Below are positions 16,995 through 24,857 of a DNA stretch of 64,000 nucleotides, piece after piece; the first letter of the stretch is position 1, and the number at the start of each line of letters is the position of its first letter. Source of the stretch: an uncultured delta proteobacterium (GTDB taxonomy: Bacteria > Desulfobacterota > Binatia > Binatales > Binataceae). The DNA lies in assembly GCA_963747845.1 (NCBI GenBank), contig CAVVGR010000007.1, positions 2,025 to 66,024 of the forward strand. Reading direction: 5' to 3'. The notes beneath the pieces are model-generated. The model saw only the letters and a program-made list of their open reading frames with translations, did not search any database and was not told where the DNA came from. Position numbers and translations under genes: made by a program.

Positions 16995-17915
16995 TTGAAT
17001 TTTATGCCGCGTTCATCACGAAAAACTGGCCCATTGAGACTCCCCGACTTTATCGGGGTTGGCCCGTCCCGCACCGGATCGACCTGGCTCTACAATGCGT
17101 TGCGGGACTCGGTGGACATGCCGGCCGGCGCCAAGGACACGCATTTCTACCATAACCTCTACGACAAAGGTCTCGACTGGTACGCCGATCACTTTCGCTA
17201 CGCGACCGGTGAGCGAAAAATCGTCGAGATTTGCCCCGGTGCGTTTTTCAGACCGCTGACCCCCGAGCGGATCAAGGCCGACATTCCGAATTGCAAAATT
17301 TTCGCCACCATTCGCAACCCGGTCGACCGCATACATTCCGTGTACAAGCTTCAGCGTCACTACGGAGTGATACGCAAAACGCTCGATCAGATGCTGGTAG
17401 TGTTTCCCGATCTGGGCGGCGGCAACCGTTACGCGTCGCTGCTGAAGAAGTGGTTCGATCTCTTCGGCCGCGAGAATGTGCTGGTCACGAACTTCGATGA
17501 ACTGCGCAACGAGCCGCAGAAGTATCTGAATCGCGTCACCGACTTCATGGACGTGGAACGAATCTCACTGGCGGATCGCAATCTCACTGACGATGCGAAC
17601 GCATTTACTGTTGCGCCCAAGAGCCGCAAGCTCGCGCGCCGCGCCACCTCGCTGCTCAACTGGCTTAACGGCCATCAGGCCTACGGCGTGGTCGATGCGC
17701 TCGGGCGGGCAGGGGTGTGGGAGTTCTGCCACGGGCGCGGCGAGCCATTTGCACCGCTTTCCCCGGAGCAAGAGGCGAGCTTGCGTCAGCGCTACCTGCC
17801 GGAAGTCGAGGCGCTGGAAGAGCTGCTCAAAATCGATCTTTCCGCCTGGAAGAAACCGCGGGCGCCGCGCAATTTGAAAGATGCTCCGCGGACGCAGCTA
17901 TCAAGCACCGGATGA
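16995..17915 (+). CDS. sulfotransferase family protein (paralogue 1 of 4)
   Basis: 5'-PSB-like loop LPDFIGVGPSRTGSTWL and 3'-PB-like IRNPVDRIHSVYK. Probable ATG at 17004. Stop overlaps the next ATG (ATGA at 17912-17915). Confidence 0.8.
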   Translation: MNFMPRSSRKTGPLRLPDFIGVGPSRTGSTWLYNALRDSVDMPAGAKDTHFYHNLYDKGLDWYADHFRYATGERKIVEICPGAFFRPLTPERIKADIPNCKIFATIRNPVDRIHSVYKLQRHYGVIRKTLDQMLVVFPDLGGGNRYASLLKKWFDLFGRENVLVTNFDELRNEPQKYLNRVTDFMDVERISLADRNLTDDANAFTVAPKSRKLARRATSLLNWLNGHQAYGVVDALGRAGVWEFCHGRGEPFAPLSPEQEASLRQRYLPEVEALEELLKIDLSAWKKPRAPRNLKDAPRTQLSSTG

Positions 17916-18849
17916 GCGCGACGAGCAAGCGCCGACTGCCTGAGATCATCGGCGCCGGTCCCGGACGTACCGGCACGACCTGGCTGCATCGCGTACTCGA
18001 AGGCCATGTCGACCTGCCGTATGGCGTCAAAGAGACGCAGTTTTTCAGCACCTTCTACGACCACGGCATCGACTGGTACGCGCGTCATTTTCGCTACGCT
18101 ACCGGCGAGCGGCGGATCGCGGAGATTTGCCCCAATTATTTTTTCAAGCTCGAATCGATCGAGCGCATCAAGCAGCATATCCCGGACTGCAGGATCGTCA
18201 CGACGATGCGCGATCCGGTCGATCGCTTGTATTCGAAATACAAGCTGGTCCGGCACACGGCTGGCGCGCGCGGCGGAACTTTAGAAGAAGCATTGAAGGC
18301 GTGGCCGTCGCTGGGCAGCGGCAACCGTTACGCGTTCTATCTCGAAGCATGGTTCGCGGCTTTTGGGCGCGAGAATGTGCTGGTGACGCTCTACGATGAA
18401 CTGCGCGCGGAGCCGCAGAAATATCTGAACCGGGTGACCGACTTCATGGGCGTCGAGCGAATCGCGCTCTCCGACCGGCGCCACATCAGCGACGACGTGA
18501 ACGCCTTCACGCGCGCGCCCAAGAATCGCAAACTTGCGCGCCGAGCGACCCGGCTCATGAACTGGCTCCAGGGCCGCCAAGCCTATGGCGTGATAGACCT
18601 GCTCGATCGCGCAGGGGTGTGGGAATTCTGCGCCGGGCGCGGCGAGCTGTATCCGCCGCTTACTCCGGAAGAGGATGCGCGTCTGCGCAAGCGCTTTCTG
18701 CCCGAAGTCGAAGCGCTCGAGGCATTGCTGAAGATCGATCTCTCCGCATGGAAGAAGCCTCGGGAGGCGCGCGCCGTCGAAGCTTCCTGTGGCGCGGCCA
18801 CTGCAACAATCGGCCGGGGCATGAGGGCCAGCGATTGGCCATTAGATGA
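17912..18849 (+). CDS. sulfotransferase family protein (paralogue 2; stop codon lost or frame change in the tail)
   Basis: MSATSKRRLPEIIGAGPGRTGTTWL and MRDPVDRLYSKYK. As assembled the frame runs on to 19423 (ORF 17717-19423), out of frame through paralogue 3. Both other frames stop at 18843-18849, immediately at the next ATG. Confidence 0.7.
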
Positions 18850-19715
18850 GCGCGAGTATCAAGCGCCGGCTGCCTGCGATTATTGGCGCTGGTCCCGGTC
18901 GCACCGGCACCACGTGGTTGCATCGCGTGCTCGAGGATCGCGTCGACCTGCCGTACGGCGTCAAGGAGACGCAGTTCTTCAACACGTTCTTCGACAAGGG
19001 CATCGACTGGTACGCGCATCATTTTCGCTACGCGACCGGCGAGCGCAAAATCGCGGAAATCTGTCCGTACTTTTTCCATCCGCTCGCGCCGGCGCGGATC
19101 AAGACTCACATTCCCGATTGCCGCATCGTCACGACGCTGCGCGATCCGGTCGAGCATACTTTTTCGGCCTACAAGCTCGTGCTTCATTTCGCCTGGGCGC
19201 AAGGATCGTTCGACGAGGTTTTGAAATCGCGGCCCAACCTCGGCAGTGGCAATCGTTACGCGTCTCATCTGCAGACGTGGTTCGAGCTTTTCGGCCGCGA
19301 GAACGTGCTGGTTACGATGTACGACGAATTGCGCGCGCAGCCGCAGTCGTACCTGGATCGAGTGACGGATTTCATGGGCGTCGATCGCATCGCACTTTCC
19401 GCGCGGCCGGAGATCGGCGATGATGTGCATTCGTTTGCGCGCGCACCGCGCAGCCTCAAGCTCGCGCGTTTTGCGAGGCATATGATGTACCGCCTCCAGG
19501 CTCGCCAGGCATACGGCGTCAGCAATCTGCTCGAACGCGCGGGCGTGTGGGATTTCTGCTACGGCCGCGGCGAGCCATTTGGCCGGCTCACGCCCGAGCA
19601 GGAACAGCGCTTGCGCGAGCGTTATCTGCCGGAGGTCGAGGCGCTCGAAGAGTTGCTCCGGATCGATCTCTCGGCGTGGAAAAAACCGCAAGCGCGCCGC
19701 GCCACCGCTGGTTAA
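18846..19715 (+). CDS. sulfotransferase family protein (paralogue 3)
   Basis: MSASIKRRLPAIIGAGPGRTGTTWL. The 3'-PB-like block reads LRDPVEHTFSAYK, with E-H where the others have [DE]-R. Confidence 0.8.
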   Translation: MSASIKRRLPAIIGAGPGRTGTTWLHRVLEDRVDLPYGVKETQFFNTFFDKGIDWYAHHFRYATGERKIAEICPYFFHPLAPARIKTHIPDCRIVTTLRDPVEHTFSAYKLVLHFAWAQGSFDEVLKSRPNLGSGNRYASHLQTWFELFGRENVLVTMYDELRAQPQSYLDRVTDFMGVDRIALSARPEIGDDVHSFARAPRSLKLARFARHMMYRLQARQAYGVSNLLERAGVWDFCYGRGEPFGRLTPEQEQRLRERYLPEVEALEELLRIDLSAWKKPQARRATAG

Positions 19716-23840: not shown

Positions 23841-23893
23841 CGAAAATGCCTCCAGCCGTGAAAAGTGAAAAAGTGAAAAAAGAACCCGTCTAT

Positions 23894-24857
23894 TTATTCC
23901 TGATACGCGCGCCCAGATCGAGCGCGGCGCGAGCTGCCGCCGGACAGGCTATTCGCCAGCCGCCGGGGCAGAAACGTCCTCATCCAGCGCAGGTAGTTCT
24001 TGACGCGATATGGATCGACCCGGATCGCACGCGCGAACGCCGCCCGCGCCCGCGGACGATCGCCGTCGCGCAGCGCCTTCAAGCCTATCGTCGCGAGGAT
24101 GCTGCGCGGCGCGCGCATCCGCGCATCGACCAGCGGCACGGCGGAGACGCCGTAGCGCTCCTGCAGATACGCCTCGAAAACATGCAGCGCTTTCGAGTAA
24201 TCGGGCAGCCGCTTGAGCTGTTTGGGGAACCATGCGAAGCGCCAGGTGACCAGCGGCTCGGCAATATACCCGAAGGGTCCCTGCTCACGCATCTTGATCC
24301 AGAAATCCACGTCCTCGAAGCGGAAGCTCGCGCCTTTCAAGGCGTCGCGATAGCCGCCGCACGCGTCGTAGGCGGAGCGGCGCGCGATCGCCGCGCTCGG
24401 CATGATCGGCCAGAGCTTCGTCAGCAGTTCCTGCAATGACGGCGGATGGTCGAAGCCGCTGCCGACCAGGGCCGTGTCGATAGCGACGCCCTCACTGTCG
24501 GCCAGCGCGCAGTTGCAGTAAACGAGCGAGAGGGCAGGGTCGGCGTCGAGCGCCGCCACGCTGCGCTCGAGGAATTGCGGCGCCCAGACGTCGTCGGCGT
24601 CGAGGAAGGCCAGGTACTCGCCCGAGGAATTCCGCGCCCCGTGGTTGCGCGCAGCAGCCGGGCCGCTGTTGGCCTGCTCGAGCAGCCGCACGCGCTCGCC
24701 GTACTGTTTGATTATGGAAAGGGTCGCGTCGGTAGAGCCGTCGTCAACGCAAATTATCTCGAAATCCGTGGAGGGTCTGCCCGGCGACGCTGTCGATAGT
24801 GCCAGCGATAGTGGCGGCCGCATTGTAGGCGGGAATGATTACAGAGACGCGAGGCAC
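23894..24857 (-). CDS. family-2 glycosyltransferase (GT2), third paralogue (frame change near 24772)
   Basis: ORF 23894-24823 begins mid-domain (...[17 protein letters not shown]). The missing start [28 protein letters not shown](L) is in an adjacent frame from GTG 24857. Removing one C in the run near 24770-24775 gives QTLTDFEII, collinear with QTFRDFEII and QTFSDYEIV. Tail is [28 protein letters not shown]. Confidence 0.8.

What the first reader, a model, noticed from the sequence alone, without database searches (positions are those of the whole stretch)
16995..24857. Sulfation plus sulfoquinovose glyco-cluster: 4 tandem sulfotransferases, 3 paralogous GT2s and a plant-like UDP-sulfoquinovose synthase
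Seen: four back-to-back sulfotransferase paralogues are joined by ATGA overlaps or 3-nt gaps. Each has PAPS-binding-type motifs (GxxRTG[ST]TWL and [RN/D]PV[DE]RxxSxYK). Two GT2 genes follow in the same operon. Converging on a REP hairpin (22547-22590) is a third GT2 of the same sub-family, followed by an SqdB that looks near-collinear with plant SQD1 as I recall it. All three GT2s share an unusual basic helical tail ending in TFLP. Established: SqdB makes UDP-sulfoquinovose (a C-S sulfonate donor). In known sulfolipid pathways its transferase partner is GT4 (SqdX/SQD2) or GT8 (SqdD), not GT2. Inference: the locus could build a glycoconjugate that is both sulfonated and multiply O-sulfated. The window contains no Wzx/Wzy, ABC exporter, priming phosphoglycosyltransferase or PAPS-synthesis genes, so acceptor and export route are unknown. 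Paralogue 3 reads DPVEHTFS where the others have an Arg, which hints at sub-functionalisation.
Basis: partly seen in the sequence, partly recalled or inferred. Interest (0 to 1): 0.72.

Follow-up and report, generated by a model that had tools for sequence, protein, structure and literature searches.

The report
Sulfated, sulfoquinovose-bearing glycan gene island
An uncultured soil bacterium (Candidatus Binatus) carries a variable gene island predicted to build a glycan with several sulfate esters and the sulfonated sugar sulfoquinovose, attached by an enzyme type not known to use that sugar; this rests on sequence evidence only, and two of the eight genes are broken as sequenced.

Summary
The eight genes are real and their family assignments hold. 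There are four heparan-sulfate-type PAPS sulfotransferases, three paralogous GT2 glycosyltransferases, and an SqdB that aligns without gaps to Arabidopsis SQD1 (E 3e-172) with the catalytic Thr/Tyr/Lys intact. The organism is Candidatus Binatus.

A 1-nt insertion removes the stop codon of ST2, and another frameshifts GT2-3. Both genes are intact in strains about 96% identical. Similar indels split COX1 and a sigma-54 activator, so assembly error is the likelier cause.

In relatives, every assessable GT2-3 orthologue (42/42) has sqdB immediately downstream. A clade-specific "SFRFED" insertion beside the catalytic ED motif occurs only next to sqdB (40/40). The convergent ST/GT2 operon is present in 27 of 29 loci.

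The modules are separable: some islands have ST+GT2 without sqdB, and one lineage has GT2-3+sqdB alone. The island sits between conserved flanks and its content varies (2-5 STs, 0-3 extra GT2s), like a surface-glycan serotype locus.

The best reading is cytoplasmic-face assembly of a lipid-anchored glycan carrying beta-sulfoquinovose and O-sulfates. Priming and export genes must lie elsewhere. The acceptor is unknown, and no experiment has tested any of this.

The parts
16995..17915 (+). ST1, a sulfotransferase (306 aa from TTG 16995, or 303 aa from ATG 17004). Asp replaces the putative catalytic Glu (KDTHFY).
   Evidence: Pfam Sulfotransfer_1 E 1.5e-14. The KDTHF[FY] variant is conserved in the ST1 orthogroup. 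98% identical to the orthologue in L002.
17912..18824 (+). ST2, a sulfotransferase. The catalytic domain is intact. A 1-nt insertion at about 18784 removes the stop, so the ORF as sequenced runs to 19423 and overlaps ST3.
   Evidence: Pfam; ORF list and frames; 1-nt insertion relative to L001-L004; 303-aa intact orthologues.
18846..19715 (+). ST3, a sulfotransferase (289 aa). Its 3'-phosphate-binding motif reads RDPVEHTFSAYK, with His in place of Arg.
   Evidence: Pfam E 3.6e-16. The D/E-H variant occurs in 26 of about 36 ST3-like sequences from relatives.
19719..20627 (+). ST4, a sulfotransferase (302 aa). It is the most divergent paralogue, 45-51% identical to ST1-3.
   Evidence: Pfam E 5e-17. 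Best PDB matches are heparan sulfate 3-OST-3 (E 1.6e-10) and NDST, with the 5'-PSB, Glu and 3'-PB motifs aligned. Identity matrix.
20638..21555 (+). GT2-1, a family 2 glycosyltransferase (305 aa) with a GT-A catalytic domain and a basic helical tail.
   Evidence: Pfam Glycos_transf_2 E 9e-35. DxD and ED motifs are invariant in alignment A1. No transmembrane segment.
21566..22531 (+). GT2-2, a family 2 glycosyltransferase (321 aa).
   Evidence: Pfam E 1.9e-35; alignment A1.
22562..22587 (.). REP-like palindromic element between the two convergent operons.
   Evidence: Hairpin in a 64-nt spacer, -20.9 kcal/mol, z -2.4. Three copies in the window against 0 expected. No T-run terminator was called there.
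22596..23840 (-). sqdB, UDP-sulfoquinovose synthase (414 aa).
   Evidence: SQD1 structures 1qrr/1i24, E about 3e-172, gapless. NCBIfam UDPsulfquin_syn scores 506 bits, the best hit but under the 575 cut-off. Thr144/Tyr181/His182/Lys185 and the GxxGxxG motif are present. Identical to database protein P0121.
23894..24857 (-). GT2-3, the family 2 glycosyltransferase paired with sqdB and the candidate sulfoquinovosyltransferase. It starts at GTG 24857 and is frameshifted by a 1-nt insertion at about 24766 in this window.
   Evidence: Frames; insertion relative to L001-L004; intact 320-aa orthologues. sqdB lies 26-169 nt downstream in 42/42 loci. The SFRFED signature occurs only beside sqdB, 40/40. 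The AF2 model of orthologue P0241 has pLDDT 86.9 and shows GT-A plus 5 helices.
25231..26470 (-). Sigma-54-dependent activator (AAA+ and HTH domains, no receiver domain). It is a conserved flank of the island and a possible but untested regulator. A 1-nt insertion at about 25664 splits it in this window.
   Evidence: Two overlapping ORFs; intact 394 aa in L002; NCBIfam hits all below cut-off. It flanks the island in L005, L009, L013-L016, L020, L101-L109 and L135. No sigma-54 promoter consensus was found upstream of GT2-3 or ST1.

Best explanation
This is a variable glycan-decoration island of Candidatus Binatus. It works at the cytoplasmic face of the inner membrane on a lipid-anchored sugar chain. 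I favour a polyprenyl-diphosphate-linked repeat unit of a surface polysaccharide over a membrane glycolipid, at roughly 60:40.

Proposed steps:
1. SqdB makes UDP-sulfoquinovose from UDP-glucose and sulfite. This rests on strong homology.
2. GT2-3 is always co-transcribed just upstream of sqdB. It carries a clade-specific Ser-Phe-Arg insertion beside its catalytic Glu-Asp. I infer that it transfers sulfoquinovose. GT2 enzymes invert the anomeric configuration, so the product would be a beta-sulfoquinoside, unlike the alpha-linked lipid SQDG.
3. GT2-1 and GT2-2 add further sugars from unknown donors (inferred).
4. The four heparan-sulfate-type sulfotransferases use PAPS to add sulfate esters at different positions. 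Family membership is shown; the targets are inferred.

Priming, flipping, polymerisation or export, and PAPS synthesis must be encoded elsewhere. The island lies between conserved flanks and differs in gene content between lineages, as surface-glycan serotype loci do.
For: - Family assignments.
- SqdB catalytic residues.
- GT2-3/sqdB adjacency is 42/42, and the convergent ST/GT2 module is present in 27/29 loci.
- The SFRFED insertion occurs only next to sqdB, 40/40 with no counter-example. The nearest sqdB-less clade reads GAG--FED.
- The closest non-sqdB relatives of GT2-3 (50-56% identity) sit inside ST/GT2 islands at the same locus. That links the two modules by descent.
- None of the eight proteins has a transmembrane segment, and the GT2 tails are strongly basic.
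- The AF2 model's nearest PDB folds are glycan-elongating GT2s: WrtF, CgT, K4CP, SpsA, AvpGT (named a GalNAc5-diNAcBac-PP-undecaprenol glucosyltransferase, the PglI activity), RmlT and TarS.
- Full-length GT2 relatives in cyanobacteria sit beside a MOP flippase and Wzc.
- An ST homologue (49%) sits in a Wzx/Wzy cluster. An SqdB homologue (83%) sits in a Wzx/Wzy cluster with an ST and a PAPS-reductase-family gene.
- Island content varies (2-5 STs, 0-3 extra GT2s, with or without GT4 and sqdB) between flanks that are 77-93% conserved.
Against: - The window has no priming transferase, flippase, polymerase, exporter or PAPS-synthesis gene.
- GT2-3 and sqdB stand alone in one lineage (L011/L012). 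A simple, ubiquitous acceptor such as a membrane lipid would fit that better.
- ST+GT2 islands exist without sqdB, so the modules can work independently.
- All related loci come from one bacterial family and often the same syntenic site, so the co-occurrence counts are not phylogenetically independent.
- No donor or acceptor specificity has been tested.
- In this window GT2-3 is frameshifted and ST2 lacks its stop codon.
Confidence: 0.5

Rival explanations
1. The locus holds two independent neighbours. GT2-3 plus SqdB make a membrane sulfoquinovosyl lipid, a phosphorus-sparing anionic lipid. The ST/GT2 operon separately makes an unrelated sulfated glycan. They lie together only because both sit in the same variable locus.
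For: - The modules occur apart: GT2-3+sqdB alone in L011/L012, and ST+GT2 without sqdB in L005-7, L015 and L020.
- They are separate, convergent transcription units.
- A two-gene sqdB+transferase unit mirrors sqdB-sqdX (PMC13436972).
- The shared flanks show that the co-occurrence is partly synteny.
Against: - The modules co-occur in 27/29 loci even though the island proteins have diverged to 48-66% identity.
- GT2-3 belongs to the same GT2 sub-family as GT2-1 and GT2-2, and its nearest sqdB-less relatives are members of ST islands.
- GT2 enzymes invert, so canonical alpha-SQDG cannot be the product (established CAZy family mechanism; my own knowledge).
- The structural neighbours are glycan-elongating enzymes, not lipid glycosyltransferases.
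Confidence: 0.22
2. The whole cluster makes a multiply sulfated oligoglycosyl membrane glycolipid as its end product, so no dedicated flippase, polymerase or exporter is needed.
For: - No export or polymerisation genes lie in the window or in any of the Binatus islands examined.
- The cluster is compact: only transferases plus one sugar-nucleotide synthase.
- The basic amphipathic GT2 tails suit membrane-surface binding.
- GT2-3+sqdB alone is a viable unit.
Against: - More distant homologues of the GT2, ST and SqdB proteins sit in Wzx/Wzy/Wzc polysaccharide clusters.
- The fold neighbours act on polyprenyl-linked or polymeric glycans.
- Content variation between conserved flanks is typical of surface polysaccharide loci.
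Confidence: 0.2
3. The GT2 enzymes with helical tails glycosylate a protein or peptide, as GmaR or SunS do, and the sulfotransferases modify that glycan. A candidate target is the nearby secreted acidic Ser/Thr-rich repeat protein.
For: - Weak phmmer hits to GmaR and SunS, E 6e-4 to 8e-4.
- A signal-peptide-bearing acidic repeat protein lies at 27506-28270.
- Sulfoquinovose is known on Sulfolobus glycoproteins (PMC4388408).
Against: - The top sequence and fold matches are glycan or polyprenyl-glycan GT2s.
- The repeat protein was detected only in the closest strain among the 22 related loci compared, not in the other islands.
- All enzymes are cytoplasmic, while the candidate target is secreted.
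Confidence: 0.05
4. In this particular genome the cluster is decaying: GT2-3 and ST2 are genuine pseudogenes.
For: Both frame disruptions are specific to this window when compared with four related assemblies.
Against: - Same-type single-base insertions also break a sigma-54 activator and split COX1, a core respiratory gene.
- The related assembly L001 shows its own similar breaks.
- Together this points to assembly indel noise.
- Apart from the indels, the sequences are about 96% identical to intact genes in DNA and 97-100% in protein.
Confidence: 0.12

Closest known systems
SQDG (sulfoquinovosyl diacylglycerol) biosynthesis: SqdB/SQD1 with SqdX/SQD2, or SqdB-SqdD-SqdC plus SqdA
   Same: The first enzyme is the same. 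SqdB here is collinear with Arabidopsis SQD1 and keeps the catalytic residues. As in Synechococcus sqdB-sqdX (PMC13436972), the synthase is co-transcribed with a single transferase.
   Different: The partner is a GT2, which inverts and has a GT-A fold. It is not the retaining GT4 (SqdX/SQD2) or GT8 (SqdD); those family assignments are from my own knowledge. The sulfoquinovose would therefore be beta-linked. No sqdC, sqdD or sqdA-like genes are present in the window. The rhizobial route goes through sulfoquinovosyl glycerol (10.1101/2022.08.18.504050). In this window four sulfotransferase genes and two more GT2 genes lie next to the pair.
Sulfolobus acidocaldarius N-glycan sulfoquinovose pathway (Agl3 synthase, with Agl1 as the predicted transferase)
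   Same: UDP-sulfoquinovose is used for a non-SQDG glycoconjugate, and the synthase is clustered with a glycosyltransferase predicted to transfer sulfoquinovose onto a glycan (PMC4388408).
   Different: That system is archaeal and dolichol-based. Its transferase is membrane-bound, and it has no sulfotransferases. SqdB here is far closer to plant SQD1. It falls under the cut-off of the only NCBIfam UDP-sulfoquinovose synthase model.
Synechan (xss) sulfated exopolysaccharide cluster of Synechocystis PCC 6803
   Same: PAPS-type sulfotransferases are clustered with several glycosyltransferases that build a repeat unit on a lipid carrier at the cytoplasmic face (PMC8205485). That paper notes that ST-containing clusters in other cyanobacteria are often partial.
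   Different: xss has 2 STs and 8 GTs plus Wzx, Wzy and PCP. This window has 4 STs and 3 GT2s with no export genes. xss has no sulfoquinovose synthase.
Heparan sulfate 3-O-sulfotransferase and NDST sulfotransferase domains
   Same: These are the best solved-structure matches. The 5'-phosphosulfate loop, the catalytic Glu (K-E-x-x-F-F) and the 3'-phosphate motif all align.
   Different: Similarity is low (E 1e-10), and these are bacterial cytoplasmic proteins with an unknown acceptor. ST1 has Asp for the Glu, and ST3 has His for the second Arg of the 3'-PB motif.
O-antigen or capsule serotype loci (variable transferase content between conserved flanking genes)
   Same: The chromosomal site is fixed, between ChrA/hyp294/(GabT) and the sigma-54 activator. 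Numbers and types of transferases and modifying enzymes vary, and the island genes are more divergent than the flanks.
   Different: Classic loci contain Wzx/Wzy or ABC transporter genes and a priming enzyme. None is present here.

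Membership tests
UDP-sulfoquinovose synthase (SQD1/SqdB) | Full-length similarity to an enzyme with proven activity and a solved structure | tested here: met
   1qrr/1i24 SQD1, E about 3e-172, residues 2-385 against 3-386 without gaps. The next-best family scores E 3e-9.
UDP-sulfoquinovose synthase (SQD1/SqdB) | Catalytic Thr145/Tyr182/Lys186 (SQD1 numbering; PMC4388408) and the GxxGxxG NAD motif | tested here: met
   Thr144, Tyr181 and Lys185 (with His182), plus GGDGYLGW at residue 7.
UDP-sulfoquinovose synthase (SQD1/SqdB) | Score above the NCBIfam equivalog cut-off (NF041015) | tested here: not met
   505.9 bits against a cut-off of 575. It is still the top hit by more than 450 bits and covers the full length of the model.
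UDP-sulfoquinovose synthase (SQD1/SqdB) | [quoted passage not shown] | not testable with these tools
   Needs an enzyme assay.
PAPS-dependent carbohydrate sulfotransferase (Sulfotransfer_1, HS 3-OST/NDST-like) | Pfam PF00685 above the gathering score | tested here: met
   54-63 bits against 22 for all four proteins.
PAPS-dependent carbohydrate sulfotransferase (Sulfotransfer_1, HS 3-OST/NDST-like) | 5'-phosphosulfate loop and 3'-phosphate motif (R-x-P-x-x-R-x-x-S-x-Y) | tested here: met
   Present in all four and aligned to 3-OST-3. ST3 has His for the second Arg, a change conserved in its orthogroup.
PAPS-dependent carbohydrate sulfotransferase (Sulfotransfer_1, HS 3-OST/NDST-like) | Catalytic base Glu in the K-E-x-x-F-F motif | tested here: inconclusive
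   Glu is present in ST2-4 and aligns with the E-P-H-F-F of 3-OST-3. ST1 has Asp, conserved in its orthologues. Activity was not tested.
PAPS-dependent carbohydrate sulfotransferase (Sulfotransfer_1, HS 3-OST/NDST-like) | A carbohydrate acceptor | not testable with these tools
   Context only: adjacent GT2s, and homologues in Wzx/Wzy clusters.
Glycosyltransferase family 2 (GT-A, inverting) | Pfam PF00535 above threshold, with the DxD and catalytic ED motifs | tested here: met
   97-123 bits against 23.3. D86/D88/D89 and E181/D182 are invariant.
Glycosyltransferase family 2 (GT-A, inverting) | GT-A fold | tested here: met
   AF2 model of the GT2-3 orthologue has pLDDT 86.9. Foldseek matches to GT2 structures reach E 5e-18.
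Glycosyltransferase family 2 (GT-A, inverting) | Intact reading frame for GT2-3 in this window | tested here: not met
   A 1-nt insertion at about 24766. It is probably an assembly error.
Canonical SQDG pathway | A retaining sulfoquinovosyltransferase (GT4 SqdX/SQD2 or GT8 SqdD) partnered with SqdB | tested here: not met
   No GT4 or GT8 domain was found in about 48 window ORFs. The invariant partner is a GT2. Genes elsewhere in the genome were not checked.
Wzx/Wzy-dependent sulfated EPS cluster (xss type) | Sulfotransferases and glycosyltransferases clustered together | tested here: met
Wzx/Wzy-dependent sulfated EPS cluster (xss type) | Flippase, polymerase, co-polymerase/exporter and priming transferase in the cluster | tested here: not met
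   Absent from the window and from the Binatus islands examined. They are present in the clusters of more distant homologues.
Hormogonium polysaccharide GT2s (HpsE/HpsN) | Score above the NCBIfam equivalog cut-off | tested here: not met
   44-52 bits against 300 and 425. The cyanobacterial relatives also fall below.

The most novel reading that the evidence does not exclude
GT2-3 is the first inverting, family 2 sulfoquinovosyltransferase. Candidatus Binatus, a widespread non-phototrophic soil and peat lineage, would then make a surface glycan carrying both a C-S sulfonate (beta-sulfoquinovose) and several O-sulfate esters. That would be the first bacterial non-lipid sulfoquinovose glycoconjugate, and a terrestrial source of sulfoquinovose that does not depend on photosynthesis.
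Probability: 0.35. Interest if true: 0.8.

Novelty: new variant of a known kind. Interest (0 to 1): 0.6.

Why it matters
A soil heterotroph lineage that puts it into a different, beta-linked and additionally sulfated glycan would add a new source and new substrates for sulfoquinovose degraders.
- It would extend sulfoquinovosyl transfer to the GT2 family.
- It would extend sulfated surface glycans beyond cyanobacteria; the synechan paper calls them exclusive to cyanobacteria (PMC8205485).
- The GT2-3/sqdB pair and its SFRFED signature give a simple marker, and a two-gene construct, for testing this directly.

Tried and rejected
- **GabT as part of the cluster: rejected.** The upstream class-III aminotransferase passes the GabT equivalog cut-off (585 against 507 bits). 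It is absent from several islands. In close relatives a GFA-family gene separates it from ST1.
- **Sigma-54 promoter search:** no GG-N10-GC consensus upstream of GT2-3, ST1 or GabT. Regulation by the adjacent activator therefore remains unsupported.
- **Sigma-70 promoter and terminator scans:** counts did not exceed those in shuffled sequence.
- **Rfam scan of 14-28 kb:** only a tRNA-Lys.
- **Exact-sequence look-ups of the window's SqdB and of P0121:** no contig returned. Cluster names were empty, so the source contig could not be inspected.
- **HpsE/HpsN equivalence of the GT2s:** not met.
- **Literature:** no paper links Binatota/Binatia to sulfotransferases or sulfoquinovose, and none describes a GT2 sulfoquinovosyltransferase.
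- **Horizontal transfer by composition:** the island's GC content (0.62-0.63) matches the window's, so there is no signal.
- **Not done:** whole-genome checks for PAPS synthesis, Wzx/Wzy or sqdX. Only about 20 kb around each homologue could be read.

Full report
**What is in the sequence**

The plus strand carries four tandem sulfotransferase (ST) genes: ST1 16995-17915, ST2 from 17912, ST3 18846-19715 and ST4 19719-20627. Two GT2 genes follow at 20638-21555 and 21566-22531. On the minus strand, converging on the same 64-nt spacer, lie a third GT2 (24857-23894) and then sqdB (23840-22596).

Pfam places all four STs in Sulfotransfer_1/3 and all three glycosyltransferases in Glycos_transf_2, each above the curated threshold. 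The spacer hairpin core (22562-22587) folds better than shuffled sequence (z -2.4). It recurs twice more in the window with 1 mismatch or fewer, against none expected, so it is a genuine REP-like element.

- ST2 has no in-frame stop at the ST2/ST3 junction, and its ORF runs on to 19423.
- GT2-3 changes frame after about 27 codons.

Alignment to four related assemblies about 96% identical in DNA shows that each defect is a single-base insertion specific to this window, at about 18784 and 24766. In those relatives ST2 is 303 aa and GT2-3 is 320 aa, both intact.

Insertions of the same kind break the neighbouring sigma-54 activator at 25664, and COX1 is split at 47424-49110. One related assembly (L001) has its own similar breaks. 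Assembly indel noise is therefore the more likely cause, but only the reads can settle it.

**Identity of the parts**

*SqdB.* It matches Arabidopsis SQD1 structures at E about 3e-172, residues 2-385 against 3-386 with no gap. The next family scores only E 3e-9. Thr144/Tyr181/Lys185 correspond to SQD1 Thr145/Tyr182/Lys186, the catalytic triad named in PMC4388408, and the GxxGxxG motif is present. It is the top hit to the NCBIfam UDP-sulfoquinovose synthase model but falls under its cut-off (506 against 575 bits).

*Sulfotransferases.* Their closest solved relatives are heparan sulfate 3-OST-3 and NDST. The phosphosulfate loop, the K-E-x-x-F-F Glu and the 3'-phosphate motif all align. ST1-3 are recent paralogues (60-72% identical), and ST4 is older (45-51%). 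The His-for-Arg change in ST3 and the Asp-for-Glu change in ST1 are each conserved within their orthogroups.

*GT2s.* They share 40-43% identity, an invariant DxD, an ED catalytic pair and the basic TFLP-containing tail. None of the eight proteins has a transmembrane segment, and the GT2 tails carry +12 to +14 net charge.

An AlphaFold model of an intact GT2-3 orthologue (pLDDT 86.9) shows a GT-A domain followed by five helices. Its fold neighbours are glycan-elongating GT2s: WrtF, CgT, K4CP, SpsA, AvpGT, RmlT and TarS.

**Organism and relatives**

Homologues carry the name Candidatus Binatus or Binataceae. I fetched 138 related loci and scored them with the eight proteins. Three patterns emerge.

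1. *GT2-3 and sqdB are an invariant pair.* In 42 of 42 loci with a GT2-3 orthologue (72% identity or more) and readable downstream DNA, sqdB follows 26-169 nt later on the same strand. The sqdB-linked clade has a two-residue insertion that gives the signature L[KR]GASFRFED next to the catalytic ED. The nearest sqdB-less clade reads GAG--FED, and GT2-1 and GT2-2 read GGP----ED or LSA----ED. Across all loci, SFRFED is followed by sqdB in 40 of 40 assessable cases and never occurs without it.

2. *The convergent ST/GT2 operon usually accompanies the pair.* It is present in 27 of 29 loci that extend at least 3 kb beyond sqdB, with 2-5 STs and 0-3 extra GT2s.

3. *The modules can be separated.* One lineage (L011/L012) has only GT2-3+sqdB. 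Several others (Ca. Binatus soli L005-7, L015, L020) have ST+GT2 islands without sqdB, in which the GT2-3-like gene is only 50-56% identical.

**A variable island at a fixed site**

The island lies between DUF1329/ChrA/a 294-aa protein (with or without GabT) on one side and a sigma-54 activator plus a 151-aa protein on the other. The ChrA, 294-aa, GabT and activator flanks are 77-93% identical across lineages. Island content and sequence vary much more, and one version also includes a GT4.

This resembles surface-polysaccharide serotype loci. It also means the co-occurrence counts are not phylogenetically independent.

**What the acceptor might be**

The window holds no flippase, polymerase, exporter, priming transferase or PAPS-synthesis gene among about 48 ORFs scanned. 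The upstream aminotransferase is GabT, a housekeeping enzyme, and is not part of the island.

More distant homologues point to polysaccharide assembly:
- An SqdB at 83% identity lies in a Wzx/Wzy cluster with an ST and a PAPS-reductase-family gene.
- An ST at 49% identity lies in another Wzx/Wzy cluster.
- Full-length GT2 relatives in cyanobacteria lie beside a MOP flippase and Wzc kinases.

Against this, the stand-alone GT2-3+sqdB pair and the absence of export genes fit a simple membrane glycolipid.

**Mechanism proposed**

SqdB supplies UDP-sulfoquinovose. GT2-3 transfers the sugar; because GT2 enzymes invert (established for the family; my own knowledge), the product would be a beta-sulfoquinoside, unlike alpha-linked SQDG. 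GT2-1 and GT2-2 extend the chain, and the STs add sulfate esters from PAPS.

All of this would happen at the cytoplasmic membrane face on a lipid-anchored acceptor. Only the family memberships and the gene linkage are shown; donors, acceptor and product are inferred.

**Comparison with known systems**

- Known sulfoquinovose lipid routes pair SqdB with SqdX/SQD2 or with SqdD/SqdC/SqdA (PMC13436972; 10.1101/2022.08.18.504050). No GT2 partner turned up in my literature searches.
- The Sulfolobus N-glycan pathway is a precedent for sulfoquinovose on a non-lipid glycan, with a clustered transferase (PMC4388408).
- The synechan xss cluster is the closest characterised sulfated-glycan system in bacteria. 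It has its own Wzx/Wzy/PCP genes and no sqdB (PMC8205485).
- No paper links Binatota to either chemistry.

**Verdict**

It is a new variant of a known kind, a sulfated-glycan biosynthesis island, with one notable new element: the GT2-sqdB pair. It is worth experimental follow-up. The product, the acceptor and the functional state of two genes in this particular assembly remain unproven.

Noticed in passing
window 18784, 24766, 25664, 13421, and the 47424-49110 split: Window-specific single-base insertions disrupt ST2 (stop lost), GT2-3 and the sigma-54 activator, and one falls in the ORF that overlaps the ChrA-family gene. COX1 is split into two overlapping ORFs. The pattern suggests indel-prone (long-read?) assembly rather than gene decay.
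   Followed up: partly
window 22562-22587, 32610-32635, 34128-34153: A 26-nt palindromic element (CTCTCCCGTGAARTAACGGGCGAGGG) occurs three times with 1 mismatch or fewer, against 0 expected by chance. It looks like a REP-like repeat family. The long spacer upstream of GT2-3 (24858-25230) also contains further GC-rich inverted repeats.
   Followed up: partly
window 27506-28270 (+): A 254-aa protein with a signal-peptide-like N-terminus and acidic Ser/Thr/Asp/Ala-rich tandem repeats (periods of 63 and 132 nt). It has no Pfam or NCBIfam match. Among the 22 related loci compared it was detected only in the closest strain. A 758-aa protein with no family match follows at 28341-30617.
   Followed up: partly
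window 16893-16908 against L002 6718-7190: Close relatives carry a 473-nt segment between gabT and ST1 that this window lacks. It encodes a small Cys-rich protein that looks like a GFA/CENP-V family member; I judged this by eye and ran no profile search.
   Followed up: partly
window 27349-27424 (+): tRNA-Lys (anticodon TTT) just downstream of the sigma-54 activator and the 151-aa membrane protein. A tRNA next to a variable island might be an integration hotspot.
   Followed up: no
window 10282-13199 (+): Two tandem DUF1329 paralogues about 90% identical in DNA. They are conserved as a pair on the left flank of the island in relatives.
   Followed up: no
window 53011-59756: Tad/Flp-type pilus genes: a secretin with a pilus N-terminal domain, a T2SSE ATPase and two T2SSF proteins. 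In Ca. Binatus soli a Flp pilin gene lies beyond the sigma-54 activator that flanks the island, about 700 nt from it.
   Followed up: no
window 42409-50161 (-): A respiratory gene block: CtaG assembly factor, cytochrome b fused to cytochrome c, Rieske protein, cytochrome c, COX3, COX1 (split) and COX2 fused to cytochrome c. A phosphoglucose isomerase lies next to it at 40753-42396.
   Followed up: no
L010 9091-11290: In a related metagenome contig, a PAPS-reductase-family gene sits directly upstream of an sqdB 83% identical to the window's. Both lie inside a Wzx/Wzy cluster with a sulfotransferase, methyltransferases and a carbamoyltransferase. This may be a local sulfite supply for UDP-sulfoquinovose synthesis.
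   Followed up: partly
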